From Limisphaerales bacterium (GTDB taxonomy: Bacteria; Verrucomicrobiota; Verrucomicrobiia; Limisphaerales; UBA11358): DNA of 64,000 nucleotides. The stretch covers positions 23,768 through 87,767 of the forward strand of contig PMOA01000155.1 in assembly GCA_003161635.1 (NCBI GenBank), read 5' to 3'. Numbering within the stretch: position 1 is the stretch's first letter; every line of letters starts with the position of its first letter. Made by a program: the position numbers and the translations under genes. The notes under the pieces are model-generated. The model made no database searches. It worked only from the letters and a program-made list of their open reading frames with translations, and was not told where the DNA came from. Positions 1 through 61,285 of the stretch are shown here, piece after piece.

Positions 1-99
1 CCGTGAACGAAACCACTCAAACAAATCCGGAGGGACGAGCTATGCGAGTCCCTGACATCAGAGGCCTTGCGTAACTCGGCCCTCCGAAAATTTGTGCAA

Positions 100-1566
100 A
101 TGAACAAAATTTCCAAGAAAAGCAATTCAGGGGAGGTTGACGCTTCTTTGCGCGTGCCGTTGCTCGCGTTGTTTGGCGGGGCAGCGTTCTGGCTGGTTGT
201 CAGTTCGGTGCTCGCCATGATTGCCTCGATTAAATTTCATGCGCCCGATTTTCTCGCCAATTGCCCGTGGCTGACTTATGGCCGGGTTCAACCGGCTGCC
301 GACGACGCGCTGCTTTACGGCTTCTGCATTCCCGCCGGACTGGGTGTTGCGCTGTGGCTGTTCGCACAACTCGGCCGGGCACCGCTGCGCGGCGCAATCG
401 TGCCGGTCGTCGCGGCAAAACTCTGGCATCTTGGTGTGCTCGTCGGTCTGACTGGCATTTTGTCCGGCAACAGCACCGGCTTTGCGTGGCTTGAATTTCC
501 GCGCGCCGGTTCGATCATTTTGTTGTTCGCTTATTTGCTGCTGGCGTTGTGGGCGATGATGAATTTTGCCGCCCGCCGCGAACGCGCGCTGTTCCCGTCG
601 CACTGGTTTTTGGTCGCCGCGCTGTTCTGGTTTCCGTGGATTTACTCGACCGCCAATTTGTTTCTGGTCGCCTGGCCGGTGCGCGGTGTGGTCCAAGCCA
701 TCATCGGCTGGTGGTTCGCCGGCAATTTGCTCTTCGTCTGGCTCGCGCTGGTCGGCATCGGCACGGCGTTTTATTTCCTGCCAAAATTCAGCGGACGCCC
801 GCTGCAAAGTTATTATCTCGCGCTGTTCGCGTTTTGGACGCTGATTCTTTTCGGGACCTGGTGCGGCATTCCGCCGGGCGCGCCGGTGCCGGCCTGGATG
901 CCGGTGCTCAGTTCCTTCGCCGCCGTGCTGACCGTTGTGCCCGTGCTCGCCGTTGCCGCCATTGCGTGGCAAACCCTTTGCGGCTCGACCAACTGCGAAC
1001 CGAAGGGCGGGCCGTTTTGTTTCATCCGATTCGGCCTCATGTCCTTCGTTCTCTCGTCGCTGATGCTCATCGCGATGGCGTGCCCGCGAATCAGCCAGGT
1101 GACGGAATTCACCTGGTTCGGCCCGGCGCAGACCCAACTGCAACTCTACGGCTTCTTCGCCATGACGATGTTCGGTGCGATTTATTATTTGTTGCCACGC
1201 GCCGTCGGGTTTGAACTTCCGTTCCCGAAACTTGCACGCCTGCAATTCTGGCTTTCGATGTTTGGCGTATTGCTGTTCATCGTCCCGCTGGCCATCGGCG
1301 GGGTGGAGCAGGGGATGAAACTGAACAATCCCAACATCGCCTTCATGGATGCGACGAAGGCGATGTTGCCATTCCTGCGCACCAGCACCATCGGCCTGCT
1401 GTTGATTCTGTTGGGCAATTCGCTGTTCGCCCTGAACATTTTTGCGATGACGTTCGTTTGGGAAAAGTCGCTGGTTAAAAAAGCGTTTACCGTCGTGACT
1501 GCGCCGCTGGAGAAGCCGTCCGCCTCCGCTTCGCTACGGCGCGACCAAGGGGAGGTGAAGGTGTGA
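100..1566 (+). CDS. Heme-copper oxidase subunit I-like (CcoN, cbb3-type fold) polytopic membrane protein lacking the canonical heme/CuB histidine ligands
   Basis: ORF 67..1566 (TTG at 67, first ATG at 100). These blocks align to CcoN: CPWLTYGRVQPAADDALLYGF, FAWLEFP, GWWFAGNLL..GTAFYFLPKFSGRPLQSYYLALFAFW and LQLYGFFAMTMFGAIYYLLPR. The whole protein has only 3 His (KFHAP, LWHLG, PSHWF), none at a ligand position. It overlaps the next gene by 4 nt. Confidence 0.8.
   Translation: MNKISKKSNSGEVDASLRVPLLALFGGAAFWLVVSSVLAMIASIKFHAPDFLANCPWLTYGRVQPAADDALLYGFCIPAGLGVALWLFAQLGRAPLRGAIVPVVAAKLWHLGVLVGLTGILSGNSTGFAWLEFPRAGSIILLFAYLLLALWAMMNFAARRERALFPSHWFLVAALFWFPWIYSTANLFLVAWPVRGVVQAIIGWWFAGNLLFVWLALVGIGTAFYFLPKFSGRPLQSYYLALFAFWTLILFGTWCGIPPGAPVPAWMPVLSSFAAVLTVVPVLAVAAIAWQTLCGSTNCEPKGGPFCFIRFGLMSFVLSSLMLIAMACPRISQVTEFTWFGPAQTQLQLYGFFAMTMFGAIYYLLPRAVGFELPFPKLARLQFWLSMFGVLLFIVPLAIGGVEQGMKLNNPNIAFMDATKAMLPFLRTSTIGLLLILLGNSLFALNIFAMTFVWEKSLVKKAFTVVTAPLEKPSASASLRRDQGEVKV
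1515..1552. repeat. Family H short element (GCCGTC..TCCGCTTCGC..GCGC..CCAAGGGG) forming the C-terminal tail of the CcoN-like ORF
   Basis: Compare 19061..19093 (gccgtcttcgctccgcttcgccgcgccaagagg). Related pieces occur at 3441..3490 and 17069..17107. Confidence 0.6.
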
Positions 1567-2390
1567 AAAACGGCGCGCTGATTTTTCTCGCGGTGTTCGT
1601 CGCCCTGGGCGGTTCCTGGTGTGGCTTCGTGCTCGCGCCGGAATTGCAGTTGGGCGGCGCAAAACAGACGACCATTCTCAATTCATCCGATGTTTATCCG
1701 GTTGGACGCCCCGGCGAAGCAACACAGGGCTCGTCGGTTTATCGCGCCAACGGCTGCGCCGTCTGTCACACCGAACAGGTCCGGCAGACCGGTATCACGT
1801 GCGAAGTGGTGCTGACGGACGCCGGGAAAACACCGGCAGCGGTGACCAAAGTTTGTGTAGATATTGGGGTGAACATGACTGACAGAACATGGCCGCTACC
1901 ACTACCAAAAACCATTTTGACCGGCCTTACCAAGGAAGAAGCCGATGCCGCGTCCGGCAAAATTACCACCGCCGGCGGCAAGGTGGAAATTCACATTGCT
2001 GCGACCGGGCCGGACATCGCGCGCGGGTGGGGGATGCGCCAGAGCGTGGCCGAGGATTATCTCTACGACCAACCGGTGCAGCTCGGCAGCCTTCGCGCCG
2101 GGCCGGATTTGGCGAATGCCGGCGCACGCGCGGACGCGAACTGGCAGTTGCTTCACCTTTACGCACCAAAGAGCGTGATGAAAGGTTCGACCATGCCGCC
2201 GTTCCGTTACCTGTTTGAAGTTCGCAAAATCGGACGCGAACCCTCGCCGGACGCGCTGAAGTTGCCGCCGGAATTTGCCCCGCACGCCGGTTATGAAGTC
2301 GTGCCAACGCCGGAAGCTATGGAACTTGCGGCGTATTTGTCGAGCCTGCGCGCCACCGCGCCATTGTATAGCGCGCCCATCGCGCCATAG
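1563..2390 (+). CDS. Monoheme cytochrome c, CcoO/FixO-like subunit carrying a ~75-80 aa insertion
   Basis: N-terminal TM anchor and a CAVCH heme-c motif (nt ~1755-1769). The CcoO-like block LRAGPDLANAG..NWQLLHLYAPKSVMKGSTMPPFRYLF keeps the Met expected as distal ligand. The GTG start overlaps the upstream stop (GTGA). Confidence 0.75.
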   Translation: MKNGALIFLAVFVALGGSWCGFVLAPELQLGGAKQTTILNSSDVYPVGRPGEATQGSSVYRANGCAVCHTEQVRQTGITCEVVLTDAGKTPAAVTKVCVDIGVNMTDRTWPLPLPKTILTGLTKEEADAASGKITTAGGKVEIHIAATGPDIARGWGMRQSVAEDYLYDQPVQLGSLRAGPDLANAGARADANWQLLHLYAPKSVMKGSTMPPFRYLFEVRKIGREPSPDALKLPPEFAPHAGYEVVPTPEAMELAAYLSSLRATAPLYSAPIAP

Positions 2391-2450
2391 GCCCATGAGT
2401 GTTGAATGATTTAACAGGAGGTAACTGAGGGCACGGAGTGGGGAAAAAGC

Positions 2451-2495
2451 GAACCCTGAACCCTGAACCTTGAACCTTGAACCTTGAACCTTGAA
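2451..2495. repeat. Heptamer tandem array (GAACCCT)x2(GAACCTT)x4
   Basis: Read directly from the sequence. It is flanked by an imperfect inverted repeat: acaggaggtaactgagggcacggag (~2421-2446) and ctctgtttcctctgtttgctcctgt (~2524-2550). Confidence 0.85.
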
Positions 2496-2659
2496 AAAAG
2501 ACAGGCAGGAAACCTGTGCTACCTCTGTTTCCTCTGTTTGCTCCTGTAAATTCCATGAACGCACTTCTTCTTTCTGCTTTCCTTGCCGTGCCGAAATCAG
2601 ATGAAGGCGGGTGAATTCTGCCTTCCAAATTCCATTTTTTCCCTCATCGTGAGCCATAC

Positions 2660-3163
2660 ATGAAACCGCTGGAACCACCGGACAGCCATTATCTGTCAGC
2701 CGCCATCGGCTGGCTGGGATTGGGCAATGTCGCTGAGGCCAGCGCGGAACTGGAAAAAATCGCGCCGCAATTCCAGTCCCATCCGGACGTGCTCGCCGTC
2801 CAATTCGACATTCACGCCAGCGCCGGGAAATGGGATGCGGCGGCGGAAATTGCCGGGGCGCTCACCCGACTGGAACCGGGGCAACCGGGCACATGGATTT
2901 CGCTGGCGTATGCGACCCGGCGGAAAACCGGCGGAGGAATTTCCCGGGCCCGGGCGATTCTGATTCAAGCCCAGCAGACCTTTCCCAAGGAACAAATCAT
3001 CGCCTACAACCTGGCGTGTTATGACTGTCAGTTGGATGATTTGGACGCGGCCAAAGCCTGGCTGGATAAAGCCCGTACGCTGGGCGATGCCCACAAAATC
3101 AAACACATGGCCCTGCAAGATCCGGACCTGGAACCGCTGTGGCCGGACCTTCGCGGGACCTGA
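2660..3163 (+). CDS. TPR-like repeat protein
   Basis: 167-aa ORF that looks helical and Ala/Leu-rich, with TPR-like periodicity (AYNLACYDCQLDDLDAAKAWLDKA). No closer family recognised. Confidence 0.55.
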   Translation: MKPLEPPDSHYLSAAIGWLGLGNVAEASAELEKIAPQFQSHPDVLAVQFDIHASAGKWDAAAEIAGALTRLEPGQPGTWISLAYATRRKTGGGISRARAILIQAQQTFPKEQIIAYNLACYDCQLDDLDAAKAWLDKARTLGDAHKIKHMALQDPDLEPLWPDLRGT

Positions 3164-3504
3164 CTAGTCGCAAAGTTGAAAGTTGGCGACCCAAATCTCA
3201 AAACGATTGCAGGCGTTTCAATCACACCATCCAGCGAAAAGTCAACGGCAGGAGAGAAATGTGTCAAAGAGTGTTCTTACGGTTCAAGCAAGGGTTCCAA
3301 AACCGACTCCGCTTCAGATTTTTCGATAAACGCCAATCCTTTGTTCCCGATGCCCAATAGCCGATTCCTCGCCCAGCGCTGTCACTGGTGAACGTAAACG
3401 GATCGGTTATTATGATTGGCTGGTTTGGTCGAGACGTCCAACTTCGCCGAGGCTTCCGCCTTCGCCAGCGCTATGGTGCCCGCACTTCATATGGCAACGC
3501 CGTT

Positions 3505-5811
3505 TTATCTCCCGCGCCGACGCCCCCGGGCCGGCCGTCCCGGCGTTCCGCGCGGAGGCGGGTTCCAGCGTCCGGCCGGCGGCCGCGTAAAGCTTCCAAC
3601 TTCGTCCTGCGTTGCGGGACTTCCGCCTTCGCGATGCTTCAGCGCGACAGGTCGATGGACAGGTCGCCACGCGGCAGGCCGCGCAACCGGTTTGCGGTCT
3701 TCCACCAGACGAAAATCCACCTGCTTTTTGAAGCTGTCCACCTTGGCCACTCGCACAGTCAACTTATCGCCCAGACGGATCGTGCGGCGGGTGCGGCGGC
3801 CCGTGAGATTATTGCGCGCGGCGTCGAATACGTAGAAGTCATCCTCGATCGTGGACAACGGCACCAATCCGCTCATCGCCAGCCCGGACACATCCACGAA
3901 GAAGCCGAAGTTGCGCACGTCGGTCACCAGCGCGGGATAATGCTCCGGCTGGCCGGATGCGAGTTGCGCCTTCAGGAACGCGAACAGCTTCACGTCCTTG
4001 CTGTCGCGCTCGGCGTCGGCGGAGTTGCGTTCGGTGACGGAAATGTGTTCGGCGGTTTCCTTGAGCGCGGACACCGGCGCGTGGCTTTTCTCGAAGAGCG
4101 CCCGATGCACCACGAGGTCGGCGTAGCGGCGGATGGGGGAGGTGAAGTGCGTGTATTTCGCTTTGGCCAGGCCGTAATGCCCGAGCGGCTCGACGGCGTA
4201 ACGCGCGCGCATGAGCGATTTGAGAAAGCCGATCTTGAGCGCGGGGCCGATGGGCAGGGCGTTGAGCCGGTGCAACAACTTCTGCACCTCAGCGGGCTGG
4301 CCCAGGTTGCCGCACGGCACGTTCTGACTCAAAACCTCCTGGCGATATTCCTGCAAACGCCGCTCGTCCGGCACTTCGTGGACGCGATAAACCGCCGGCG
4401 TGCGCTGGCTCATCAACCGCTCCGCCACCGCCTCGTTCGCCAGCAACATGCATTCCTCGATCAACTGGTGCGACACGTCGTTCACGGTCTTCTCGATTCG
4501 CAAAATGCACCCGCGTTCATCCAGCCGGATTTTGGTTTCGGGAAAATCGAGGTCGAGCGAACCGGCCTTGAAACGCAATCGCCGGATGCGTTGGGCGAGT
4601 TCATGCGCCTGATGTAACATCTGTTCAACGGGATCGGACGCGGGTTTGCGCTGAAGAATCTTCAGCACTTCGCCGTAGGTGAAGCGCCGTTGCGAATGGA
4701 TCACGGCGGAATAAAACTTCGCGTTCAACACCCGCCCGTCATTCGACACGAGAAATTCAACGCATTTGGTCAGGCGATCCACGTCCGGCTTGAGCGAGCA
4801 CAGTTCGTTGCTCAACGCCTCCGGCAGCATCGGGATGACGCGGTCCACGAGATAGGTCGAGTTGCCGCGTTTGCGCGCCTCCGCGTCCAGCGCCGTGCCG
4901 GGCTTCACGTAATGCGACACGTCCGCAATGTGGACCCACAGCCGCCATTGTTCCGTCGAAACGCGCTCCAGACAGATGGCATCGTCGAAATCTTTTGCGT
5001 CGTCGGGATCAATCGTGACGACCCGGTGACGGCGGCAATCCACGCGACCCGCCCCGTCGCGCGCGTGAATCGTCGTGCCGATGGCGTGCGCCTCGTGCAG
5101 GACGGCTTTGGGAAAATGCAGCGGCAAATCGTATTGGCGCAGCACCGAGAGCATGTCCACGCCTTCCTCACCCGGCGCACCGAGGACTTCGACGATCTCG
5201 CCTTCCGGATTCGTGTGGCGCGATTCCCATTCGCGCAACTCGACCACCACCTTGTCGCCAATGCGCGCGGGCCGGCCCAGGTCGCGCGGCTCCGGCACAT
5301 AAATATCGTGCGGGATGCGCGGATCATCGGGAATGACGTAGAGAAACCGCCGTCCCCGTTGCAGCGTGCCGACCATCTGCGTGCGCCGTCGTTCCAAAAT
5401 GCGGACCACCGCGCCCGTGTCCGGCTCGGCGGCGCCGGAGCGCAATCCCTTTGGCCGGACATCGCGTCGCACCAGCACGCGATCTTCGTGCAAGGCCGTG
5501 CCGGTCGCGCCCTCCGGGATGGCAATTTCCTTGAGGCCGGCATCGTCCGGCTGGAGAAAGCCCTTGCCCTGGCGGTTCATCCGGATCCGGCCCGGAATCA
5601 AATCCGCCTCGCGCGGCTGGATGTAACGGTTGCCCTTGATGCGCGCGACGCGGCCCGTCTGCTCCAGTTCGCGGAGCGCGCCCTGCAACACCTGCTGACG
5701 GTTGGGCGGCAGCCGAAGCAGCCGGAGCAGCTCCGGCACATTGGCCGGGACGTAATCTTTTTGGTCCAACAGACGGACGATCTGGTCTTTCATGATTTGG
5801 AATTCCGGCAT
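3505..5811 (-). CDS. rnr: Ribonuclease R (3'-5' exoribonuclease, RNB family)
   Basis: 768 aa. RNB-domain motifs VTIDPDDAKDFDDAI and YLVDRVIPMLPE are present. The C-terminus has an S1-like region (GFFVDV) and an Arg/Pro-rich basic tail. Confidence 0.9.
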   Translation of the reverse strand: MPEFQIMKDQIVRLLDQKDYVPANVPELLRLLRLPPNRQQVLQGALRELEQTGRVARIKGNRYIQPREADLIPGRIRMNRQGKGFLQPDDAGLKEIAIPEGATGTALHEDRVLVRRDVRPKGLRSGAAEPDTGAVVRILERRRTQMVGTLQRGRRFLYVIPDDPRIPHDIYVPEPRDLGRPARIGDKVVVELREWESRHTNPEGEIVEVLGAPGEEGVDMLSVLRQYDLPLHFPKAVLHEAHAIGTTIHARDGAGRVDCRRHRVVTIDPDDAKDFDDAICLERVSTEQWRLWVHIADVSHYVKPGTALDAEARKRGNSTYLVDRVIPMLPEALSNELCSLKPDVDRLTKCVEFLVSNDGRVLNAKFYSAVIHSQRRFTYGEVLKILQRKPASDPVEQMLHQAHELAQRIRRLRFKAGSLDLDFPETKIRLDERGCILRIEKTVNDVSHQLIEECMLLANEAVAERLMSQRTPAVYRVHEVPDERRLQEYRQEVLSQNVPCGNLGQPAEVQKLLHRLNALPIGPALKIGFLKSLMRARYAVEPLGHYGLAKAKYTHFTSPIRRYADLVVHRALFEKSHAPVSALKETAEHISVTERNSADAERDSKDVKLFAFLKAQLASGQPEHYPALVTDVRNFGFFVDVSGLAMSGLVPLSTIEDDFYVFDAARNNLTGRRTRRTIRLGDKLTVRVAKVDSFKKQVDFRLVEDRKPVARPAAWRPVHRPVALKHREGGSPATQDEVGSFTRPPAGRWNPPPRGTPGRPARGRRRGR

Positions 5812-5931
5812 GGGCGATTGAACTGTGGCACGCGCGCCGATTTACCCGCGCCGAAGTCCGTCAACAGTATGGCGAATTGCGAGGCCTTGACCAGCCCCAC
5901 CTTTGCCCGGCGGCGACAAAGTTTCGCTGAT

Positions 5932-5954
5932 GGTTGAGAGTTGAAGGTTGAGTG
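5932..5954. repeat. Heptamer array GTTGAGA GTTGAAG GTTGAGT
   Basis: Read directly; lies in the queG-rnr intergenic region. Confidence 0.7.
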
Positions 5955-14855: not shown

Positions 14856-16796
14856 TTATTCACGAATTGAAATCGGCGGCAGGTATTCACCGATTAATTC
14901 GCGCTTCCACCAGGCGCCCGCCTGCGGGGACGAAGCTCCGACCTGTGTGTTGGAGCGAAGGCCCGCGGCGCGGCGTTCGGCGAGGTTGGTGAAACGATAA
15001 TCGTAAAATTCTGCCCGAATATAGCGCGGTGGATGACCGGGAAACGGATTTTTTTCCAGCAAGGCCAGGACTTCCGGCGAGCCCTGCAACAGCCGCTCGC
15101 AAAAATTCACGAACCAGGGGTTCTGCTGGGAATTGCCAAGGGCAGCAAACCACATCTGCCAGTCCAGCCGCGGTTGGTGGGGTGCAACAAATGCCGGCCG
15201 CCAGTTCACGTCACCGGGCTTGTATTTGAATTCGTAGGCCAGCCAGTTGGTTCCGTCGCTGCTGCCTTCCACCACGATCTCACGCCGTTCGGTCGTCATT
15301 ACGGCAAACAAACCGTAACTATTGAACGTCCGCAGCGGCCCAAGCCAGGCATCCACGACCGCTACCGGCAGAAACCAAACCGGTCGTGCGCCAAACAGGA
15401 GGGCCGTTTGAAAGAAGTAAATGAGCATCACCACGATGGCGAGCGGAACGATGACAGTGCGAGACCAACGGCGCGCCGGGTTGTGGGTTGAGGGTTGAGA
15501 GTTGAGGGTAAAGGCGTGACGCAGCCTGGCTGGTGCGAGTTTCGCCAGCGCAGAGTCGTCGAGCAGCAACAGGCAGAGCGCCAGCGTCAGCCAGTTGAAA
15601 AAAGTGTAATTGCCGGTCAACAGGATCAGGATTTGAAAAATGGCGATGGCCGCGCCGCCGCAAAACCTCAGCCGGCGCGGCGCAAAAATCAGCAACGATG
15701 CGCCGAGTTCGACGGCGAACATCACCAGGCAGGAGGCTTTTTGAAACCATCCCGGCAACTGGTCCGCATACCAGCCAATCCAAGTGGGCAGTGGCTGGGT
15801 CTGGTAGTGAAATGTGAGGGCCATGAGGTTGCGCCAGTTTGGATCACCGCTGAACAGCTTCACGCAACCGGACGAAAACATGAGCTTGAACAACAATAAT
15901 CGCAGCAGCCAGAGCACGACGCGCGAGGGTGGAGTTTCGCGCGCTGGCCGTGGCCACCATTGCATCGGCGCCAGGAAAATGGCGAGGAAACCGGCTTCGA
16001 GCAGCAGATTGTCCCATTGAAAACCGAGAAAATCACGGCCAACGGTCACCAGCGAAAGATAAAACAGCCAGAGCAGGGCCAGGCAGGGCGCGGGCGCAAG
16101 ATTGAAAATCAGCAGCAAGGCCAGCACTGAACCCGCCGCGCATTGGAAGTGCAAAAAGCCGTCGGACGCATTGAACCAGCACAACGTCGGCAGCAGGTAA
16201 TAGCGGTCCAGGCCGATTCCCTGCCGGTCGCATTGTTGTCCGGCTCCGGACATGAACTGGTCGGCCGGCAAAATGCCGTTGTGCCCGATGAGGCCGCTGA
16301 TTTGCGTCCACAACGAAACGAACGCGATGAGGTAAATCACGCCCAGGGTGCGCAGAAAAATCCGGCGCGTGAGAAAATGCGCCGGCGGCTCGATGTGTCG
16401 TCCCCAGAACCAGCGCGTCAGCCGGGAGAACAAGGTTCGATTTTCAGCGACCAGGCGGTAGGCCCATTCAGCGAGGTTCGCCAACATCGGCGATTTTTCG
16501 TAACCGCGCAGTGGCCATTGCCGGTTGGGATTGTGCGCCCACGTGCGGAAAACGGCCTCCGCACCGGAATAAACCAGGCCGTCGGTTTCGATGAGCACGA
16601 CGGCCGTGTCAAATTGCCGGCTGGGAATTTCGCGAAATTGCGCGGCGATGTGCGGGTCCTGGGCGGGCAGATAGTCCACGCTGTCGCCGGTCATTTGCTG
16701 CCAGCGGCGGATCCACAACGTGCAGAAATTGCAGTCGCCGTCAAAAACCAGCAACGGCTTGGCCGGCGGTGTGGCGACGCGGATGCCGCTTTGCAT
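14856..16796 (-). CDS. Fusion protein: N-terminal DCC thiol-disulfide oxidoreductase domain + lipase maturation factor (LMF1)-like polytopic membrane domain
   Basis: The N-terminus FDGDCNFCTLWIRRW is a DCC motif. It is followed by many TM helices and an LMF-like C-terminal region (LDWQMWFAAL). An in-frame heptamer array at 15486..15509 encodes TLNSQPST. Confidence 0.7.
   Translation of the reverse strand: MQSGIRVATPPAKPLLVFDGDCNFCTLWIRRWQQMTGDSVDYLPAQDPHIAAQFREIPSRQFDTAVVLIETDGLVYSGAEAVFRTWAHNPNRQWPLRGYEKSPMLANLAEWAYRLVAENRTLFSRLTRWFWGRHIEPPAHFLTRRIFLRTLGVIYLIAFVSLWTQISGLIGHNGILPADQFMSGAGQQCDRQGIGLDRYYLLPTLCWFNASDGFLHFQCAAGSVLALLLIFNLAPAPCLALLWLFYLSLVTVGRDFLGFQWDNLLLEAGFLAIFLAPMQWWPRPARETPPSRVVLWLLRLLLFKLMFSSGCVKLFSGDPNWRNLMALTFHYQTQPLPTWIGWYADQLPGWFQKASCLVMFAVELGASLLIFAPRRLRFCGGAAIAIFQILILLTGNYTFFNWLTLALCLLLLDDSALAKLAPARLRHAFTLNSQPSTHNPARRWSRTVIVPLAIVVMLIYFFQTALLFGARPVWFLPVAVVDAWLGPLRTFNSYGLFAVMTTERREIVVEGSSDGTNWLAYEFKYKPGDVNWRPAFVAPHQPRLDWQMWFAALGNSQQNPWFVNFCERLLQGSPEVLALLEKNPFPGHPPRYIRAEFYDYRFTNLAERRAAGLRSNTQVGASSPQAGAWWKRELIGEYLPPISIRE
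15486..15509. repeat. Heptamer array (GTTGAGG GTTGAGA GTTGAGG) in frame inside the DCC-LMF gene
   Basis: Read directly; encodes TLNSQPST on the minus strand. Confidence 0.75.
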
Positions 16797-16889: not shown

Positions 16890-17189
16890 ATGAGCCCCCA
16901 ATTAGAAAAGCCGGCAGAGAAGTTAGGGCGTCGTGGAACTCCACCCTCCGAAACACGTCAAAAACCCTCTGCCCTCCTTGACACCCGCGTCGTTTATTGT
17001 GGCGACAATCTGGAACAGCTCGCGAAGCTGCCCGATGCCTGCGTGGATTTGATTTACATTGACCCGCCTGCGTGGCCGAAGCCACTTCGTCGCGGCGAAG
17101 GCCCGCCCTTCAACTCCAATCGCAACTACGAAGTCTTCTGGGGCGAGACCAATTCGCGGTGCAGCTCCATGGGAACGCGTTCCGTGTGA
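16890..17189 (+). pseudogene. Remnant (N-terminal ~95 aa) of an N6/N4 DNA methyltransferase, disrupted in the DPPF motif
   Basis: VYCGDNLEQLAKLPDACVDLIYIDPP[AWPKPLRRGEGPP]FNSNRNYEVFWGET, then an unrelated tail and a stop. The target-recognition and SAM-binding remainder is missing. Confidence 0.55.
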
Positions 17190-17251
17190 TAGGGAAATTT
17201 CCTTTTCTTCACCCGTTTTCCGGTTATCCTGCTGCGCTCTGATTTAAGACA

Positions 17252-19042
17252 ATGGACGCAGCACATATTCGCAATTTCAGCATCATTGCCCATATTGACC
17301 ATGGGAAGACGACGCTCTCGGACCGGCTCCTGCATCGCACCGGCACCATCGCCACCCGCGACATGGAGGCGCAATTGCTCGATTCCATGGACCTCGAAAA
17401 GGAACGCGGCATCACCATCAAGGCGCATCCGGTCACGATGCGTTACACGGCGCGCAACGGCGAGACTTACGAGCTGAACCTGATTGATACGCCGGGGCAC
17501 GTGGATTTTTCCTACGAAGTGTCGCGCAGCTTGAGCGCGTGCGAAGGAGCGTTGCTCATCGTGGACGCGGCGCAGGGCGTCGAGGCACAAACGGTCGCCA
17601 ACGTGCACCTGGCAATGAAGCAGAATCTCACCATCATCCCCATCATCAACAAGATTGATCTGCCGCATGCGAATGTCCCGGAAACCCGGCAACAGCTTGA
17701 AGACATTCTGGCAATTCCGGGTGACACGGCGATTCTGGCCAGCGCCAAAGAGGGGATTGGCATTGATGAAATTCTTGAGGCGATCATTGAGCGCATTCCG
17801 CCGCCGAAGCCGACCGGCGCACCGTCGGTGCAGGCGCTGGGCTTCGATTCCTATTTTGACACTTACAAGGGCGTCGTCACGCACGTGCGCGTATTCAACG
17901 GCGAGTTGAAGGCGGGAATGCATGTTAAGTTGCTGCACTCCGGCAAAAACGTGGAGATCAAGGAAGTCGGCAGTTTCAATCCCAAACCTTACGTCCGGGA
18001 AAAACTGGAAGTGGGCGAGACGGGTTATTTCACCGCGAACATCAAAAGCCCGAAGGAAGTGAAGATGGGCGACACGGTGACGGACGCGCGGAATCCTTCG
18101 CCGGTGCTGGCGGGGTTCAAGGAGATTCATCCGATGGTGTTCAGCGGGATTTATCCAATCAACACCGGCGATTACGAGCATCTCAAGGCGAACATGGGCA
18201 AGTTGCAGCTCAACGACTCGGCGTTTGTTTATCAGTCGGAAACGTCGGTCGCGCTCGGCTTCGGTTTTCGTTGCGGGTTTCTCGGTTTGTTGCATCTGGA
18301 AATTGTGCAGGAACGGTTGCGCCGCGAATACGGCATGGACATCATCGCGACGTATCCGAGCGTGGTGTATCGCGTGACGATGAGCGACGGCGTCGTGAAG
18401 CAAATTGACAACCCGGCGTTTTTGCCGGAACCGAATTACATCCAGAAAATCGAGGAGCCAATGGTCAAAGCCTTTGTGATTTGCCCGAACGAAAACATCG
18501 GCGACATGATGGCGTTGATTTCCGAGAAGCGCGGCGCGGTGGACCAGACGGAAACGCTGGACGCGCGGCGGGTCATGCTTACGAGCCTGTTGCCGTTGAA
18601 TGAGATTTTGATAGATTTCCATGACCGCATCAAAAGCATGACGCGCGGTTACGGTTCGATGGATTACGAACACGCCGATTATCAGGAGTCGGCGATGGTG
18701 AAGCTCGACCTGCTCGTGAACAACGAGTCGGTGGACGCGTTTTCGTGCATCGTGCATCGCGACAAGGCGGAGGGCAGGGGACGCGCGCTGGCGGCCAAGC
18801 TCAAGGAAGTCATCCCGCACCAGCAATATCAGGTCGCGATTCAGGCGGCCATCGGCGGAAAAATTGTCGCGCGCGAAACGGTCAGCGCCTTCCGCAAGGA
18901 TGTGACGGCGAAATGTTACGGCGGCGACATCACGCGCAAACGCAAACTTCTCGAAAAACAAAAGGAAGGCAAAAAACGCATGAAAGCGTTCGGCACGGTC
19001 AATATCCCGCAGGAAGCGTTTATCGAAGTGTTAAAAGCATGA
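17252..19042 (+). CDS. lepA: Elongation factor 4 (LepA)
   Basis: IRNFSIIAHIDHGKTTLSDR G1 motif and DTPGHVDF; full-length at 596 aa with the LepA C-terminal domain. Confidence 0.95.
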   Translation: MDAAHIRNFSIIAHIDHGKTTLSDRLLHRTGTIATRDMEAQLLDSMDLEKERGITIKAHPVTMRYTARNGETYELNLIDTPGHVDFSYEVSRSLSACEGALLIVDAAQGVEAQTVANVHLAMKQNLTIIPIINKIDLPHANVPETRQQLEDILAIPGDTAILASAKEGIGIDEILEAIIERIPPPKPTGAPSVQALGFDSYFDTYKGVVTHVRVFNGELKAGMHVKLLHSGKNVEIKEVGSFNPKPYVREKLEVGETGYFTANIKSPKEVKMGDTVTDARNPSPVLAGFKEIHPMVFSGIYPINTGDYEHLKANMGKLQLNDSAFVYQSETSVALGFGFRCGFLGLLHLEIVQERLRREYGMDIIATYPSVVYRVTMSDGVVKQIDNPAFLPEPNYIQKIEEPMVKAFVICPNENIGDMMALISEKRGAVDQTETLDARRVMLTSLLPLNEILIDFHDRIKSMTRGYGSMDYEHADYQESAMVKLDLLVNNESVDAFSCIVHRDKAEGRGRALAAKLKEVIPHQQYQVAIQAAIGGKIVARETVSAFRKDVTAKCYGGDITRKRKLLEKQKEGKKRMKAFGTVNIPQEAFIEVLKA

Positions 19043-47932: not shown

Positions 47933-50900
47933 TCACGGCCAATACACCGAGCGATAAAACCGCTGCGTATAATTTGTCGCCTGTGTGTCGGTGAATTGCC
48001 ACAAGCCGTTGATGTCCGCTGTGTTTGTGCTGACCGGCGTCCAAACCACCGGCGGCATCAAATCCAGCGTCGCTTCCACCAGATAAGTGTAATCGGGAAC
48101 GCCGACAAAGCTCAGGGTCACACTGCCATTGCCGTTGACGACCGTCCCCGCAATGGAATTTGTCGGCGGTGGCCCGACGACGACGTTGATCACACTGGCG
48201 GCGGTCCCGCCCTGGCCGTCACCAACCGTGTAATTGATCTGGTCAGCCACGTCATTGGCGTTGGTGTAATAAACATAGCTGCTGTCGTAGCTCACCGTCG
48301 CCGCATTGGTGCTGCTGATGCCGCTCGTCAACGCCAGCGGGTCACCGTCCGCATCACTCCAATTCGTCGCCAGATTGCCGGCGATGATGATGTTCAACGG
48401 GTATCCCGCCGGACGCGAATAAGTGGACGGGTTGGCGACCGGCGCCGTATTGTTGTAAGTCAGCGTGGCAACAATGCTTGTCACACTGCCGGAACCGTTG
48501 CTCACGACCACGGCATAACTGCCGGCATTGGTTGCCACCGCACTGGCAATGCTGTAGTTGGTGGCCGTCGCGCCAGTGATGGGCGAGCCATCCTTGAGCC
48601 ATTGATAAGTCGGATCGGGAATGCCGGTAGCCGTCACGATGAAGTTCGCGGACTGCCCCTGACTGACGGACTGGTTGGCCGGCTGGCCGATGATGTTGGG
48701 CGCCAATGCCGGCATCCAGCCATAAAGCCAGTTCGTCACACTTTGAGCGGCCAACAAACGCGGGTCATTGTTCGTCAGCACAGTGAGGCCCAACGAAACC
48801 GGAAGCGTGCCGTCAATATTGCTGTTGGCATATTCCCACAGAACATAAGTGCTCAAAATACCCGCTGCGGGGGTCACATAGTGGTTGGTGTCAATCAAGC
48901 AGTTGATGAACGATACCAAACCGTTGGCGGTGCCGTTGGCGCCTTCCAAGGTAATGGTGGTAACCGCGGGATCCGCTTGAAGCCTGCACTTCACATACGA
49001 AAAGCCATCGGCCGTGTAAGAGCCGGCAGGGTTCAGCCAACGATACGTCGCATTACTGGTAACGTTGAAGTCTGTCCGCGCGGCGTTCATATTGAAATTG
49101 TTGGTAACATAGATATTCGGAATGGTGAAGATCAAACAGTTGGTGAAGAAGAGGTTGCCACCGCCCCAGATGTAGTCGAAATTACCCCGCACCGTGGTGT
49201 TGTAGAAATACCCCTGGGCTGAGTTGACGTTGGCCAGAATGGTGTCCTGGAGGCTGTTCACGTCACAGTTGTTCACGATGAACCGACTGGCCCCCGTGTT
49301 GATCATGATCGTTTCGGCTTGTGAGCCACCTTGCGGCGTACGGTTGACGACCGTCATATTTTCTATCGCGATGTAGCTGCCGTTCACCTTAAATGCCATG
49401 CGGCTGGCGGTGGAGCCGCCTGGGGCAATGTTCGCATTGTTGCCGTAACCGACCACGGTGCCCGTGCGGCTTTGTCCGCGAAAGGTAACATTGGTCTTGC
49501 CCGAGATGTTCACGATTTCCACGTAATTGCCGTTGCGGATGTTGATCAACGTGTAATTGATATTGTTGAGCGGGATGGAATCCACGGCCCCCTGCACGGT
49601 GACAAAGTCGCCGCTGCCATCGGCAGCCACCACCAGATTGGTCGGATTGGCCGGGCCGGCCGGCTTGGTGGTAAAGCGCCATGCATTCGTGTCGGAGATG
49701 CCGGCAAAGTACGCCCCCGCGCTGTTCTTCACGATGCCGGAATCCATCGTCACGTAGTAAGTCTGATTGGAAGTCAACACGCCCGAGTGCGGATAAATCG
49801 CCGCCGTGTTGTTCGTAATGATGACCGGGAAATAATTGAAGAGTGTGCTATCACCCTGGAACAGGCTGTGCGCCTGGACGTTGTTGGTCAGAGTAATCCC
49901 CAGACCGGCGTTGAGGGTGCTGATAATCACGGTGTTGGCACCCATGTCAATCGTATCCACCGGCGTAACGGGGTTGGTGGCGTTATAGATGCGAATCTTG
50001 CCGCTGTTGACGATTGAGATCGCCCCGTTGAAGGTGACATACAGCGGCGTGTCATAGCACACACCGGTCGCACTGTTGGCGGGAGATACAGTGGTCTGGG
50101 CCAGGGTCGTGGAATTGACCTGGAGCGTCGCATTGAAACTGAACACCGTGCCCGCCGTGTTCGTGGCCATGAGTGAGTAAACTCCATTGTCCGACCCCAG
50201 GGCACTGGCGAAAAAGAGCGTGGCATTGGTCTGGTTGGGGATGTTGACCCCGTTTTTGCGCCATTGCAGGGAAGGCGCGGGGTGGCCGTCGGCGCCCGAG
50301 ACCAAGGTCACGGCATCACCCACATTGACAGTGATATTTGTCGGTTGCGGGGTGATCGTGGGCGGCACCAGGACCGTCAGGATCGCACTATTGGTTTCCA
50401 TGCAGGCGGCGTTGCTCACGATGACAGAAACCGTGGTGGCATTCAGCGCATGCTGGATGTTGGTGAACGTCAGCGAAGAATTCGTTGCGCCGGCAACATT
50501 CACGCCATTGGTCTGCCACTGGAACGCGGGTTGAGGATTGGCCAGAATGACCGTGACGGTAAAAGTGCCACTATTGTCTTGAGTGACTATCAGGCTGTTC
50601 GGTCCGGAGAGGTCGGGGCAGTAGTTGCCAACAATCAAACCCGCAAACGAACTGGTCACGGAGTTGTAGATGTTGGTGACGACGACGGCGTAAAGGCCGG
50701 AATTAGTCAACTGGGCGTTTGCAAGCGAAAACACGGTGTTGGTCTGGTCGGCAACGGGTATCGGCATATTCGTGGCAGAACTGCCGTAAAAATACCATTG
50801 GTAGGACAGCGGCGAACTGCCAGTGGCGGCGACCGAGGAAGTCAGATTGCCACCAACGCTAACCGCATTATTTGTCGGCTGGCTGGTGATGACCACTTGG

Positions 50901-53413: not shown

Positions 53414-53473
53414 ATACGTAATGTGTTTGGGAATAGTATGGGTTATTATTACGCCATAATGACCAAATTCCAT

Positions 53474-53484
53474 AATTTGCCTAG
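53474..53484 (-). promoter_or_regulatory. Shared upstream motif CTAGGCAAATT, 60 nt before the giant PME gene start
   Basis: The same 9-mer CTAGGCAAA occurs 63 nt before the PEP-CTERM gene start. Both upstream regions are AT-rich and also share aacccata and gtaataa words. Confidence 0.3.
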
Positions 53485-53607
53485 CTGCACAAATGTATGG
53501 TTTTTGGGGGGAGCGGGGAGTCTGGACGCACCCCTGACACCCGTAAAAGCGGGCTTCCAAGACTGTCAACGAGAAGCGCATCCTTGCGCCCGGCACCCAT
53601 CAAACAC

Positions 53608-59793: not shown

Positions 59794-61155
59794 TCAGTTC
59801 GACTGCAAACGGTAAAAGCGGCTTTGGCTGGAATCCAGCGGCCGGGTGACGGTAAACACCGCTCCTGTGTTCTGGATCGGATCGGGCACCAACGACCATG
59901 CTGTCGAAGGCGCCAAAGTGGTTGTCGTCATCAACTTCGAAGCAGCTCCACTGAATGGCCACTGTAGCTGCAGATTTGAGCCATTGAGGGAGGTTCCTAT
60001 CAAGAGTGGGGCAGCCATTCCACCAACGGCGTCGGCCACTGGCAGAACATTGCCACCGGTATCAAAAAACGACGCCGTATTGAAACCGGCTTCATTGACG
60101 CCGTTGGCCGCTTGATATTCTGCTCCCCAATAGAAGACGCCAGCCCCGAGTTGGTTGGTCACACTTTTCACGACCTTGGCCAGCGCCGCGATGAAGCTGA
60201 CCTGACCGGCTCTGGTGGGCGGGTAGCCGTAAAGACTCCCAAAGTTCGTCCAAGAGGTGGGGAAGGTGTTGGTCCAAGGAAAAGCGGTTTCTGCGACAAT
60301 TATAGGTTTGCCGTAACGAACAGCAGCGTTGCTAAGGCAGATGTTCAGACTCGTCGGTGAGCCGTGCCACCACGGGTAATAACTCTCGCCGATGATATCG
60401 TAAGGAACTCCTTGAAAGTTCAGGTTGTCAAAAAACCACATGGTCGTGGCCCAATCTCCACCACGGTCAATATGGACAATGATTGTGGGCATTTTAGCGC
60501 CCGTAGCGTTCGTAGCGTCCTTGATTCCCTGGATTGCAGCATTCATCAATTGGCCAAGTTGTGACCATGACGTGTTTTGGCTTCCGCTGACCTGTCCATC
60601 CGGAAACAACATGCCTTGGGGGATTTCATTTCCAACCTGGACGTAATCCGGCATCGCCCCTGCGGCTGCGAAGGCAGCGATGTTGTTGCTGTTGTAGGTG
60701 CGCATCTGCTGGACAAGTTGGGGAAAGGTCAGGCTTGCCCAAGCGGCGGGCTTGGCTTGATCGTTAGGGTCGGCCCAAGTGTCGGAGTAATGAAAATCCA
60801 GGCAGAAGAGCAGGCCGGCATTCTTGACTCGCACTGCCAGCGGCACAGTGTAAGTGAGATTGTTTGTGTAATTGTAGGCGTTCGCTTGAGCTTGGGCTGC
60901 GCTGCTGGTCCAGAGCCGCAGTCTTATGCAATTGATGCCATGGTCCTTGAGAATCTGAAACCCGTCCTTAACCTGTCCGCCGTCCTTGTAAACCTTGCCC
61001 CGGCTTTCGAAAAAACTCAGGTCCGAAAAGTCCGCGCCGGCCACGAACGGAGCGGCGGGTGCCGCAAAAGCCGCCCCTAGCAACAAGCCGGCCAGAACAC
61101 CGGCCTTTTTTGTGCCGTTCATGAAGCCGGCAGGAACTAGATTTGCGAATTTCAT
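59794..61155 (-). CDS. GH53 arabinogalactan endo-beta-1,4-galactanase with C-terminal RFYR module
   Basis: ORF 59794..61218; the start is probably MKFANLV (61155). GADFSDLSFFESRG..ILKDHGINCIRLRLW and VQVGNEI are GH53 blocks. Confidence 0.85.
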   Translation of the reverse strand: MKFANLVPAGFMNGTKKAGVLAGLLLGAAFAAPAAPFVAGADFSDLSFFESRGKVYKDGGQVKDGFQILKDHGINCIRLRLWTSSAAQAQANAYNYTNNLTYTVPLAVRVKNAGLLFCLDFHYSDTWADPNDQAKPAAWASLTFPQLVQQMRTYNSNNIAAFAAAGAMPDYVQVGNEIPQGMLFPDGQVSGSQNTSWSQLGQLMNAAIQGIKDATNATGAKMPTIIVHIDRGGDWATTMWFFDNLNFQGVPYDIIGESYYPWWHGSPTSLNICLSNAAVRYGKPIIVAETAFPWTNTFPTSWTNFGSLYGYPPTRAGQVSFIAALAKVVKSVTNQLGAGVFYWGAEYQAANGVNEAGFNTASFFDTGGNVLPVADAVGGMAAPLLIGTSLNGSNLQLQWPFSGAASKLMTTTTLAPSTAWSLVPDPIQNTGAVFTVTRPLDSSQSRFYRLQSN

Positions 61156-61285
61156 GCCCATGCGACTGCTTACAACCAGACCCAACTCCACCAAATCAAA
61201 GCCGGAACTGTTCTGCAATCTTCAAACAGTCCCGGCTTCCTAACGGTCGCCATCGATCCGGACGGCGGTTTTTATTTATAATGAT

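What the first reader, a model, noticed from the sequence alone, without database searches (positions are those of the whole stretch)
100..1566. CcoN-like oxidase subunit with every heme/CuB histidine ligand replaced, yet intact and coupled to a CcoO-like cytochrome c
The protein is colinear with cbb3 oxidase subunit CcoN across the conserved blocks. Each position that carries a metal-ligand His in CcoN is substituted:
- RPLHTNAV -> QPAADDAL (low-spin heme ligand)
- ILHVVNNL -> WIYSTANL
- WWYGHNAV -> WWFAGNLL (this also loses the cross-linked Tyr)
- GPHHLHY -> GIPPGAP (CuB ligands)
- GHVHAG -> QTQLQL (heme b3/b ligands)

Only 3 His remain in 499 aa, none at these sites. The ORF has no frameshift or stop. 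It keeps the hydrophobic architecture and overlaps by 4 nt a CcoO-like gene that retains CXXCH and the distal Met. This looks like a conserved pseudo-oxidase scaffold for a c-type cytochrome rather than a decaying gene. No ccoP/ccoQ follow. I know of no described function for such a ligand-less HCO subunit. The reference CcoN blocks are recalled from the Pseudomonas stutzeri enzyme and should be re-aligned.
Basis: partly seen in the sequence, partly recalled or inferred. Interest (0 to 1): 0.75.

Follow-up and report, generated by a model that had tools for sequence, protein, structure and literature searches.

The report
Cofactor-less cbb3 oxidase relic in ACIII operon
This gene encodes an intact, conserved copy of the catalytic subunit of a cbb3 oxygen reductase that has lost every residue needed to bind its hemes and copper; it sits at the end of an alternative complex III operon with a real heme-c partner, and databases and papers on Verrucomicrobia count it as a high-affinity oxidase, which it cannot be.

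Summary
ORF 100-1566 is a full-length, colinear CcoN homologue: Pfam COX1 E 1.9e-38, AF2 pLDDT 92.6, TM 0.84-0.88 to solved CcoN. All six metal-ligand His (H60, H207, H257, H258, H345, H347) and the cross-linked Tyr251 are replaced.

It overlaps by 4 nt a CcoO-like gene that keeps its membrane anchor, CXXCH and the Met-ligand motif.

It is not a decaying gene:
- It is intact in all 80 species genomes fetched.
- dN/dS is 0.14-0.29, like the neighbouring ActF and ActE.
- Of 126 full-length clusters at 50% identity, 122 keep at most two of the seven catalytic residues.

The window cuts off the key context. The pair always closes an alternative complex III operon (actABCDEF, an ActG-like gene, pseudo-ccoN, ccoO). 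In Methylacidiphilum, Methylacidimicrobium and a Prosthecobacter-like lineage, a monoheme cytochrome c and a genuine aa3 oxidase follow directly. Canonical relatives in Planctomycetota and Opitutales keep all ligands and the copper-assembly genes.

Best reading: a fossil cbb3 module kept as a non-catalytic membrane scaffold that holds c-type heme(s) relaying electrons out of ACIII. That role is inferred, not shown.

The literature I could search calls these genes a high-affinity cbb3 oxidase.

The parts
1..99 (+). Spacer between the upstream ActG-like gene (which ends just before the window) and the pseudo-ccoN start
   Evidence: Identical contigs L001-L006 place a 124-aa single-TM protein ending 99 nt before the ATG. 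No sigma-70-like promoter was found in 1-3600. This is consistent with co-transcription with the act genes, but that is inferred.
100..1566 (+). Pseudo-CcoN: 488-aa, 12-helix heme-copper-oxidase fold lacking all heme and CuB ligands
   Evidence: Pfam COX1 1.9e-38. TIGR00780 far below cutoff. Colinear with 3mk7_A. AF2 pLDDT 92.6 and pTM 0.92. Foldseek TM 0.84-0.88 to CcoN chains. dN/dS 0.14-0.29.
298..300 (+). Ala67, at the position of heme b ligand His60
   Evidence: Ala in 120 of 121 close homologues.
721..723 (+). Gly208, at the position of CuB ligand His207 (WWYGHN -> WWFAGN)
   Evidence: Numbering recounted.
853..876 (+). Gly252 ... Pro258-Pro259, at the positions of cross-linked Tyr251 and CuB ligands His257/His258
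1129..1137 (+). Gln344-Thr-Gln346, at the positions of heme b3 ligand His345 and heme b ligand His347
1563..2390 (+). CcoO-like monoheme cytochrome c (275 aa), translationally coupled by a GTGA overlap, with an N-terminal membrane anchor
   Evidence: Pfam FixO 73.6 bits. Aligns to CcoO chains 8smr_F and 3mk7_B in two blocks. TM segment at aa 3-26. Overlap seen.
1755..1769 (+). CAVCH heme-c attachment motif (aa 65-69)
   Evidence: Present in all 88 CcoO-like ORFs matched in the window and the loci then held. C65, C68 and H69 are invariant in A3.
1788..2039 (+). Insertion of about 84 aa (aa 76-159) replacing a roughly 10-residue stretch of canonical CcoO
   Evidence: Query 49-75 aligns to chain 49-75 and query 160-253 to chain 86-179. 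CXXCH-to-GPDL distance is 96-133 aa in most Limisphaerales copies against 45-47 in Telmatocola and Opitutales. It has a conserved core plus a variable sub-insertion. A Pfam L7/L12 C-terminal match is below cutoff (E 3e-4, 21.5 bits against 25.9).
2193..2195 (+). Met211 of the MPPF motif, the predicted sixth heme ligand
   Evidence: Aligned with the 'mpay' motif of solved CcoO. M211 and P212 are invariant. The motif is found in 84 of 88 ORFs.

Best explanation
The gene pair is the remnant of a cbb3-type oxidase that was genetically coupled to alternative complex III in an ancestor of the Planctomycetota-Verrucomicrobiota group.

In most Verrucomicrobiota the catalytic subunit CcoN lost both hemes, CuB, the cross-linked Tyr and most polar residues of its proton path. 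It kept its 12-helix fold. The protein can no longer reduce O2.

It is retained, under purifying selection, as a membrane scaffold. It holds the membrane-anchored monoheme cytochrome c CcoO and, in most lineages, a second monoheme cytochrome c next to ACIII. Electrons from quinol oxidation by ACIII would pass from ActE to these c hemes and on to a separate terminal oxidase. In several lineages an aa3 oxidase is encoded immediately downstream.

Shown here: loss of ligands, retained fold, selection, operon membership, and transcription in a relative. Inferred: physical association with ACIII and the electron-relay role.
For: **Ligands lost, fold kept.**

**Family, not an accident.** Of 126 full-length clusters at 50% identity, 73 keep 0 of the 7 catalytic residues, 38 keep 1 and 11 keep 2. 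Only 2 keep all 7. 513 pattern-matched stretches in the one-genome-per-species GTDB collection encode a relative.

**Selection.** NG86 dN/dS for pseudo-CcoN is 0.14-0.29, against ActF 0.16-0.26, ActE 0.13-0.25 and CcoO 0.16-0.30.

**Operon.** The order actB-C-D-E-F, ActG-like gene, pseudo-ccoN, ccoO is invariant wherever the contig reaches, across 80 Limisphaerales loci.

**Ancestral state.**
- Telmatocola has act genes, FixS, a ligand-complete CcoN, CcoO, a cytochrome c and a P-type ATPase.
- One Opitutales copy keeps the heme ligands and H207 but lost Y251, H257 and H258.

**Link to a real oxidase.**
- In M. tartarophylax, M. infernorum and a Prosthecobacter-like lineage the order is ACIII, pseudo-CcoN, CcoO, monoheme cytochrome c, A-type COX1, COX3, COX4, COX2.
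- The M. tartarophylax COX2 scanned has a cupredoxin domain only, with no fused c domain. It therefore needs an external c-type donor.
- At least 53 of 88 loci with a CcoO-like ORF carry the extra cytochrome c. Two Limisphaerales loci carry aa3 genes about 4 kb downstream.

**Other support.**
- CcoO keeps CXXCH and the Met motif in nearly all copies.
- The pseudo operons seen carry no FixS or Cu-ATPase gene, unlike the canonical ones.
- M. caldifontis IT6_00902 (pseudo-ccoN) is transcribed at 110/83, ccoO at 239/81 and ActF at 102/44 in the units of the supplementary table.
- Polar residues I recall as proton-path residues are mostly apolar here, for example S240 -> Ala in 109 of 130.
Against: - No direct evidence that the protein binds ACIII or CcoO, or that CcoO's heme is on the ACIII exit path.
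- The window's own lineage lacks both the downstream cytochrome c and nearby aa3 genes. Its CcoO carries a large insertion of unknown role, so the relay partner here is unknown.
- I could not check whether this genome has a bona fide terminal oxidase. Only 64 kb is visible, and it holds none.
- The predicted periplasmic face is only marginally more conserved than the cytoplasmic face (entropy 1.96 against 2.29, p = 0.04).
- No usable model of CcoO or of the pair was obtained.
- About half of the family keeps Glu at the Ca-site position E122, and 21 of 130 keep H207. Residual metal binding in some members is therefore not excluded.
Confidence: 0.6

Rival explanations
1. A lineage-specific decaying pseudogene of a cbb3 oxidase, with no function.
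For: All catalytic residues are gone and the ccoN equivalog score is far below cutoff. No ccoP, ccoQ or assembly genes are present in the window.
Against: - The ORF is intact here and in 80 species genomes.
- dN/dS is 0.14-0.29, equal to neighbouring essential ACIII subunits.
- Synteny is conserved across at least four verrucomicrobial orders.
- The substituted residues are themselves conserved.
- AF2 confidence is 92.6.
- A cultured relative transcribes it.
Confidence: 0.02
2. Still a redox enzyme: it binds heme or metal through non-His ligands (Gln, Tyr, Met) and catalyses a different reaction.
For: Gln at both H345 and H347 and Tyr182 are conserved within the close clade. Heme-copper oxidase relatives with altered active sites, such as gNOR and nNOR, are known.
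Against: - Across the family the ligand columns are not conserved for any ligand-capable residue. H60 becomes A, F, Q or S. H345 becomes L, Q, R or V. H347 becomes Q, L or M. H257 and H258 become P, A, S or R.
- Pro-Pro at the CuB site cannot ligate metal.
- Tyr182 sits at H175, which is not among the six metal ligands and is Tyr in the ligand-complete relatives too.
- No FixS or Cu-ATPase gene is present in the pseudo operons.
Confidence: 0.05
3. The membrane domain has gained a new, non-redox job of its own. Candidates are ion or proton conduction coupled to ACIII, lipid or quinone binding, or acting purely as an assembly or stability factor for ACIII. CcoO would then be incidental.
For: - TM cores are as conserved as the periplasmic face (entropy 1.98 against 1.96).
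- The window's lineage has no downstream cytochrome c or oxidase.
- ACIII already contains cofactor-less relics such as the ActB1 domain and ActF (paper PMC5928083).
- Retention of ligand-less respiratory proteins for structural reasons has been proposed in Acetobacteraceae.
Against: - Polar residues I recall as forming the cbb3 proton path are mostly replaced by apolar ones: S240 -> A, Y251 -> G/A, E323 -> L/M, and Y223 and Y317 -> F in about half.
- CcoO always co-occurs, stays translationally coupled and keeps its heme motifs. It is therefore not incidental.
Confidence: 0.2

Closest known systems
cbb3-type cytochrome c oxidase core CcoN/CcoO (P. stutzeri 3MK7/5DJQ, P. aeruginosa 8SMR, R. 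capsulatus 6XKW)
   Same: Same 12-helix subunit I fold (TM 0.84-0.88, rmsd 2.1-2.4 A). Same ccoN-ccoO gene order with coupled translation. CcoO keeps its TM anchor, CXXCH and Met motif.
   Different: - None of the six His ligands, Tyr251 or Glu323 remains.
- Identity is 20-21%, and TIGR00780 gives 118 bits against a cutoff of 583.
- No ccoP, ccoQ or ccoGHIS genes are present.
- CcoO carries an insertion of about 84 aa.
ACIII-linked canonical cbb3 of Planctomycetota and Opitutales (Telmatocola sphagniphila QVL33256.1, Opitutaceae bacterium TAV1)
   Same: These are the nearest ligand-complete sequence relatives. Telmatocola scores about 300 bits against about 80 for proteobacterial CcoN. Telmatocola has the same placement directly after actABCDEF plus a small TM protein. 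They share Tyr at the P. stutzeri H175 position.
   Different: They keep all ligands and Tyr251. In Telmatocola a CcoO of 210 aa, a cytochrome c, FixS and a P-type ATPase accompany the CcoN.
ACIII-oxidase supercomplexes (Flavobacterium johnsoniae ACIII-aa3, Rhodothermus marinus ACIII-caa3)
   Same: The act operon is followed by oxidase genes. Electrons pass directly from ACIII c hemes to the oxidase without a soluble carrier (paper PMC5928083).
   Different: In those systems the bridging c heme is an extra domain of ActA or a domain fused to subunit II. Here the candidate bridge is CcoO, with or without another cytochrome c, carried on a dead CcoN. That arrangement is not described in the papers I could search.
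Ligand-less 'deranged' COX1-like protein of Acetobacter, and ligand-less bc1 of acidophilic Acetobacteraceae (PMC10715153)
   Same: These are respiratory catalytic subunits that lost all metal ligands yet are retained, with a structural role proposed.
   Different: - Those are A-family COX1 next to ctaB, or bc1 subunits, in one alphaproteobacterial family.
- This is a C-family CcoN with a functional-looking heme-c partner.
- It is embedded in ACIII operons across a phylum.

Membership tests
C-family heme-copper oxygen reductase, subunit CcoN (TIGR00780 / cbb3 subunit I) | 12-TM COX1 fold, colinear with CcoN | tested here: met
   Pfam COX1 132.9 bits. phmmer to 3mk7_A spans 30-454. Foldseek TM 0.84-0.88.
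C-family heme-copper oxygen reductase, subunit CcoN (TIGR00780 / cbb3 subunit I) | Bis-His ligation of low-spin heme b (H60, H347) | tested here: not met
   Ala67 and Gln346.
C-family heme-copper oxygen reductase, subunit CcoN (TIGR00780 / cbb3 subunit I) | Proximal His of high-spin heme b3 (H345) | tested here: not met
   Gln344.
C-family heme-copper oxygen reductase, subunit CcoN (TIGR00780 / cbb3 subunit I) | Three His ligands of CuB (H207, H257, H258) | tested here: not met
   Gly208, Pro258 and Pro259.
C-family heme-copper oxygen reductase, subunit CcoN (TIGR00780 / cbb3 subunit I) | Cross-linked active-site Tyr (Y251, helix 7) | tested here: not met
   Gly252. Gly or Ala in 109 of 130 family members.
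C-family heme-copper oxygen reductase, subunit CcoN (TIGR00780 / cbb3 subunit I) | Curated equivalog score of at least 583 bits | tested here: not met
   118.6 bits.
C-family heme-copper oxygen reductase, subunit CcoN (TIGR00780 / cbb3 subunit I) | O2 reduction, with heme b and Cu content | not testable with these tools
   Needs purified protein.
CcoO / FixO monoheme subunit II | N-terminal TM anchor, CXXCH, and Met sixth ligand in the MPxY/F motif | tested here: met
   TM at aa 3-26. CAVCH at 65-69 and MPPF at 211-214, invariant in A3.
CcoO / FixO monoheme subunit II | Family score cutoffs | tested here: inconclusive
   Pfam FixO gives 73.6 bits against a cutoff of 29.6, which is met. TIGR00781 gives 64 bits against a cutoff of 200.65, which is not met. 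The match is split by an insertion of about 84 aa.
Alternative complex III operon (accessory subunits) | Encoded in one gene string with actA-F | tested here: met
   Contigs identical to the window carry actA, actB, actC, actD, actE, actF and an ActG-like gene immediately upstream. The same order occurs in 80 species loci and in Methylacidiphilales and Verrucomicrobiales loci.
Alternative complex III operon (accessory subunits) | Physical subunit of the ACIII complex or supercomplex | not testable with these tools
   Needs co-purification or cryo-EM.

The most novel reading that the evidence does not exclude
A dead cbb3 oxidase is an obligate structural adaptor of a verrucomicrobial ACIII-aa3 (or ACIII-other oxidase) supercomplex. 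Its CcoO and CcoP-like hemes would wire ActE to CuA, a bridging solution unlike those known in Flavobacterium or Rhodothermus. If so, the 'cbb3 high-affinity oxidase' credited to Methylacidiphilum, Methylacidimicrobium and many Verrucomicrobiota MAGs does not exist. Their low-O2 physiology, and ccoN-based (K00404) inferences of microaerobic respiration for this phylum, would need re-reading.
Probability: 0.45. Interest if true: 0.78.

Novelty: new variant of a known kind. Interest (0 to 1): 0.68.

Why it matters
[quoted passage not shown] Reviews and genome papers cite them as the high-affinity terminal oxidase of verrucomicrobial methanotrophs and link them to low-O2 growth. The sequences of M. 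infernorum, M. caldifontis and three Methylacidimicrobium strains or species cannot bind the cofactors. Counts of ccoN as a marker of microaerobic respiration would be inflated for this phylum.

**Mechanism.** This may be a new way of coupling ACIII to a terminal oxidase.

**Evolution.** It offers a graded series: canonical copies, a copy with only the CuB site lost, and fully ligand-less copies. The series shows a catalytic subunit turning into a structural one. The idea that respiratory complexes retain dead subunits for structural reasons has a precedent in Acetobacteraceae, so this is not a new principle.

Tried and rejected
**A wrong lead of my own.** I briefly thought the Planctomycete and Opitutaceae relatives lacked CuB ligand H207. 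That came from mis-numbering. The His of 'ILHVVNN' is H175, and H207 is the His of 'WWYGHN'.

**An insensitive test, then redone.** My first test for other oxidases (phmmer with a CcoN query) could not see A-type COX1. I repeated it with a real A-type COX1, COX2 and COX3. The window holds none. Two Limisphaerales loci have aa3 genes downstream.

**An idea that did not generalise.** I thought the CcoO insertion tracked ligand loss. It does not. Methylacidiphilales and the Prosthecobacter-like lineage have ligand-less CcoN with a CcoO of 197-227 aa, near canonical length.

**Structure attempts that failed.**
- AF2 of CcoO from a single sequence gave pLDDT 36.

**Other dead ends.**
- The search for related loci with the 43-sequence alignment had no stretch conserved enough.
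- Eight literature searches found no description of a ligand-less CcoN.
- Refojo et al. 2010 (BBA), the paper most likely to have noticed it, is not held.
- The 85-aa ORF called between actB and actC in L001 is conserved in only 1 of the later loci. I treat it as a spurious gene call.
- The NJ tree is a comb of long branches. I do not use it to count independent losses.
Full report
**What is at the coordinates.**
- The + strand carries an ORF at 100..1566 (488 aa from ATG; 499 aa from an upstream TTG at 67) and a second ORF at 1563..2390 (275 aa, GTG start).
- The two overlap in the sequence GTGA, with a GGGGAGG ribosome-binding site just upstream.
- The first protein matches Pfam COX1 end to end (E 1.9e-38, 132.9 bits). 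It reaches only 118.6 bits on the NCBIfam ccoN equivalog, whose cutoff is 583.
- The second matches FixO/CcoO at 73.6 bits.

**Checking the ligand claim.**
- phmmer against all PDB sequences finds only CcoN chains (8smr_E, 3mk7_A, 9g6b_A, 6xkw_n, 9g83_t) at E 1e-13 to 1e-22, aligned colinearly over about 425 residues.
- I recounted P. stutzeri numbering from that alignment and re-derived it with MAFFT anchored on the P. stutzeri sequence.
- The substitutions are:
  - H60 -> Ala67
  - H207 -> Gly208
  - Tyr251 -> Gly252
  - H257/H258 -> Pro258/Pro259
  - Glu323 -> Met322
  - H345 -> Gln344
  - H347 -> Gln346
- The protein has three His in all (47, 110, 168), so the result does not depend on alignment detail.
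  - The His of 'ILHVVNNL' is H175, not one of the six metal ligands. It is Tyr even in ligand-complete relatives.
  - The Tyr of 'WWYGHN' is not the cross-linked Tyr. The cross-linked Tyr is Y251 on helix 7. The His of that motif is CuB ligand H207.
- The identities of the ligands in P. stutzeri cbb3 are from my knowledge of the 3MK7 structure paper. The mapping itself is computed.

**The fold is kept.** An AlphaFold2 model built on a 43-sequence alignment has mean pLDDT 92.6 and pTM 0.92, with twelve long helices. Foldseek against the PDB ranks CcoN chains first (TM 0.82-0.88, rmsd 2.1-2.7 A over about 450 columns, 20-22% identity). cNOR NorB and A/B-family subunit I follow.

**It is a family, not an accident.**
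- A word-indexed search returns 1853 hits. [quoted passage not shown]
- In those 120 the replacement residues are themselves conserved: Ala, Gly/Asn/Asp, Gly, Pro, Pro, Gln, Gln.
- An exhaustive HMMER scan of 1.84 billion cluster representatives gives 377 clusters at E <= 1e-30.
- Of 126 full-length representatives among the top 150 (30-54% identical to the query):
  - 73 keep none of the seven catalytic residues
  - 38 keep one
  - 11 keep two
  - 1 keeps three
  - 1 keeps four
  - 2 keep all seven
- A pattern scan of one genome per GTDB species finds 513 loci encoding a relative. The best 80 are almost all labelled Verrucomicrobiota, most as Verrucomicrobiia, Limisphaerales or 'subdivision 3'.

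**Selection.**
- The 80 loci hold uninterrupted copies. A few are cut by a contig end.
- Nei-Gojobori dN/dS against the window copy, from the printed pairs with unsaturated dS:

| Gene | dN/dS |
|---|---|
| pseudo-CcoN | 0.14-0.29 |
| ActF | 0.16-0.26 |
| ActE | 0.13-0.25 |
| CcoO-like | 0.16-0.30 |
| ActC | 0.09-0.24 |

- The pseudogene reading is therefore rejected.

**Context the window cuts off.**
- Contigs that encode the identical CcoO-like protein show the full gene order: actA (multiheme c), actB (1069 aa, Fe-S), actC (NrfD), actD, actE (monoheme c), a 444-aa ActF, a 124-aa single-TM protein, pseudo-ccoN, ccoO-like. A TPR gene and the convergent RNase R gene follow.
- The window starts exactly after the 124-aa gene.
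- That small protein resembles the one annotated ActG in M. caldifontis.
- tblastn shows the same order, actB through ccoO, in every one of the 80 species loci as far as each contig reaches.
- The rest of the window holds housekeeping and polysaccharide-utilisation genes. It has no other respiratory gene.

**Relatives with and without ligands.**
- Ligand-complete relatives:
  - Telmatocola sphagniphila (Planctomycetota) scores about 300 bits to the query, against about 80 for proteobacterial CcoN.
  - Others are from Opitutaceae bacterium TAV1, a Puniceicoccaceae MAG and a subdivision-3 MAG. All have all six His and Tyr251.
  - In Telmatocola the gene follows an act operon with FixS, a 210-aa CcoO, a cytochrome c and a P-type ATPase.
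  - The subdivision-3 copy is a stand-alone ccoNOP plus ATPase operon.
- One Opitutales MAG copy is intermediate. It keeps H60, H207, H345 and H347 but lost Tyr251, H257 and H258.
- Named ligand-less members include:
  - Methylacidimicrobium tartarophylax WP_178086931.1
  - Verrucomicrobium sp. 3C
  - Methylacidimicrobium sp. AP8
  - Ca. Methylacidiphilum infernorum
  - a Prosthecobacter MAG
  - an Opitutaceae MAG
- In M. tartarophylax, M. infernorum and the Prosthecobacter-like lineage the order is as follows:
  - ACIII, a small TM protein, pseudo-CcoN, CcoO (197-227 aa), a monoheme cytochrome c.
  - Then an A-type COX1 (433 bits on Pfam COX1), COX3, COX4 and COX2.
  - The M. tartarophylax COX2 that I scanned matches only the COX2 periplasmic and cupredoxin domains.
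- Among the 88 loci with a CcoO-like ORF, at least 53 have the extra monoheme cytochrome c right after ccoO. Two Limisphaerales loci have aa3 genes about 4 kb downstream. The window's own lineage has neither.

**The CcoO-like partner.**
- It keeps an N-terminal TM helix, CAVCH and the MPPF motif. These align with the heme-binding motif and the Met-ligand region of solved CcoO.
- C65, C68, H69, M211 and P212 are invariant in 30 orthologues.
- About 84 residues (76-159) replace roughly ten residues of canonical CcoO. The insertion has a conserved core and a variable sub-insertion, and gives a sub-threshold Pfam hit to the ribosomal L7/L12 C-terminal domain.
- The insertion is a Limisphaerales feature, not a general correlate of ligand loss.

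**Expression.** The supplementary table of Awala et al. 2024 (PMC11102522) prints the M. caldifontis IT6_00902 'ccoN' sequence. It shows the ligand-less motifs GRIELASF, WWFNEG, SSASH and AFLVLF. Expression in two conditions, in the table's own units:

| Gene | Condition 1 | Condition 2 |
|---|---|---|
| pseudo-ccoN (IT6_00902) | 110 | 83 |
| ccoO | 239 | 81 |
| adjacent cytochrome c | 245 | 115 |
| ActG | 150 | 169 |
| ActF | 102 | 44 |

**Mechanism.**
- Shown: the protein cannot ligate heme b, heme b3 or CuB. It is folded, selected for, co-transcribed-looking and always paired with a heme-c protein at the end of an ACIII operon.
- Inferred: it is a fossil of an ancestral ACIII-coupled cbb3 oxidase. 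It would now serve as a membrane scaffold that positions CcoO, and usually a second cytochrome c, to take electrons from ActE and pass them to a separate oxidase.
- The ACIII / pseudo-cbb3 / aa3 gene strings fit this, as does the absence of a fused c domain in the COX2 I scanned.
- A proton-conducting role seems unlikely. Residues I recall as forming the cbb3 proton path are largely apolar in the family (S240 -> Ala in 109 of 130; Y251, E323).
- The periplasmic face is only slightly better conserved than the cytoplasmic one (p = 0.04), so the docking argument is weak on its own.

**What is known.**
- Reviews and genome papers describe the ACIII-adjacent genes of verrucomicrobial methanotrophs as a high-affinity cbb3 oxidase. 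They count three oxidase types in these organisms.
- A 2026 description of Limisphaera lists bd, caa3 and cbb3 oxidases plus ACIII.
- None of the papers found mentions missing ligands.
- The 2024 survey of heme-copper oxidase families describes altered active sites but, in the passages I searched, no ligand-less family.
- A precedent exists in another lineage. A ligand-less COX1-like protein in Acetobacter and ligand-less bc1 complexes in acidophilic Acetobacteraceae are both suggested to persist for structural reasons.
- I therefore rate this a new variant of a known kind: a pseudo-catalytic subunit retained in a respiratory assembly. It has practical consequences for annotation and for the physiology ascribed to Verrucomicrobiota.
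- The older subscription literature on ACIII gene clusters could not be read, so prior notice there cannot be excluded.

**Limits.**
- There is no direct evidence of protein-protein association.
- There is no model of the pair.
- The oxidase complement of this particular genome is unknown.
- The acceptor of CcoO's electrons in the window's lineage, which lacks the adjacent cytochrome c and aa3 genes, is unknown.

Noticed in passing
window 1788-2039 (aa 76-159 of the CcoO-like protein): An insertion of about 84 aa sits right after the heme-binding motif. It has a conserved core (G77, C80, L84, G88 ... G138, K140, E142) and a variable sub-insertion. It gives a sub-threshold Pfam match to the ribosomal L7/L12 C-terminal domain (E 3e-4). 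It is seen in the Limisphaerales copies and not in the Telmatocola, Opitutales, Methylacidiphilales or Prosthecobacter-like copies examined.
   Followed up: partly
L093 / M. caldifontis IT6 table: [quoted passage not shown] It labels the ligand-less CcoN (IT6_RS04550) simply 'cytochrome oxidase'. The annotation of this locus is confused in both directions.
   Followed up: partly
L089:9299-9964: In this distant member's locus the ~400-444-aa ActF is missing. Only 149-aa and 68-aa ORFs lie between actE and pseudo-ccoN. This could be a real ACIII variant without ActF or an assembly or frameshift artefact.
   Followed up: no
Ligand-complete Planctomycetota/Verrucomicrobiota CcoN (P0186, P0355, P0368 and others): These relatives have Gln or Ile at the P. 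stutzeri Glu323 column, Gly at H243 and Tyr at H175. The active-site Glu said to be mandatory in C-family oxidases (paper PMC5492636) is therefore not aligned as Glu in this clade. This rests on the alignment only.
   Followed up: no
L001:3759-4016: An 85-aa gene is called between actB and actC. It has no TM segment and no Pfam hit, and tblastn finds it in only 1 of the later loci. It is probably a spurious gene call.
   Followed up: partly
window 127-1245 (-), 549-1214 (+), 3388-4617 (+), 4690-5937 (+), 17126-18961 (-): Long ORFs lie antisense to, or out of frame with, real genes (pseudo-ccoN, RNase R, lepA). The one I scanned (17126-18961) has no family match. They look like by-products of the 58-62% G+C content.
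   Followed up: partly
window 47933-53596 (-): A 1887-aa protein combines autotransporter-type PATR repeats, Ig-like domains, a pectinesterase domain and Big_9/cadherin-like domains. It lies in a stretch rich in carbohydrate-active genes, including two GH53 genes at 59794-61218 and 62265-63914, a GH2, an alpha-galactosidase and a fucose isomerase / FGGY kinase / aldolase set.
   Followed up: no
window 14856-16796 (-): A bacterial protein joins a DCC1-like thiol-disulfide oxidoreductase domain to lipase maturation factor (LMF1 and LMF1_C) domains, which are best known from eukaryotes.
   Followed up: no
paper PMC11102522: In M. caldifontis IT6 a nos (N2O reductase) gene cluster is reported inserted inside the ACIII gene string, next to the pseudo-cbb3 and aa3 genes. 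The same ACIII and c-heme module may therefore feed more than one terminal reductase.
   Followed up: no
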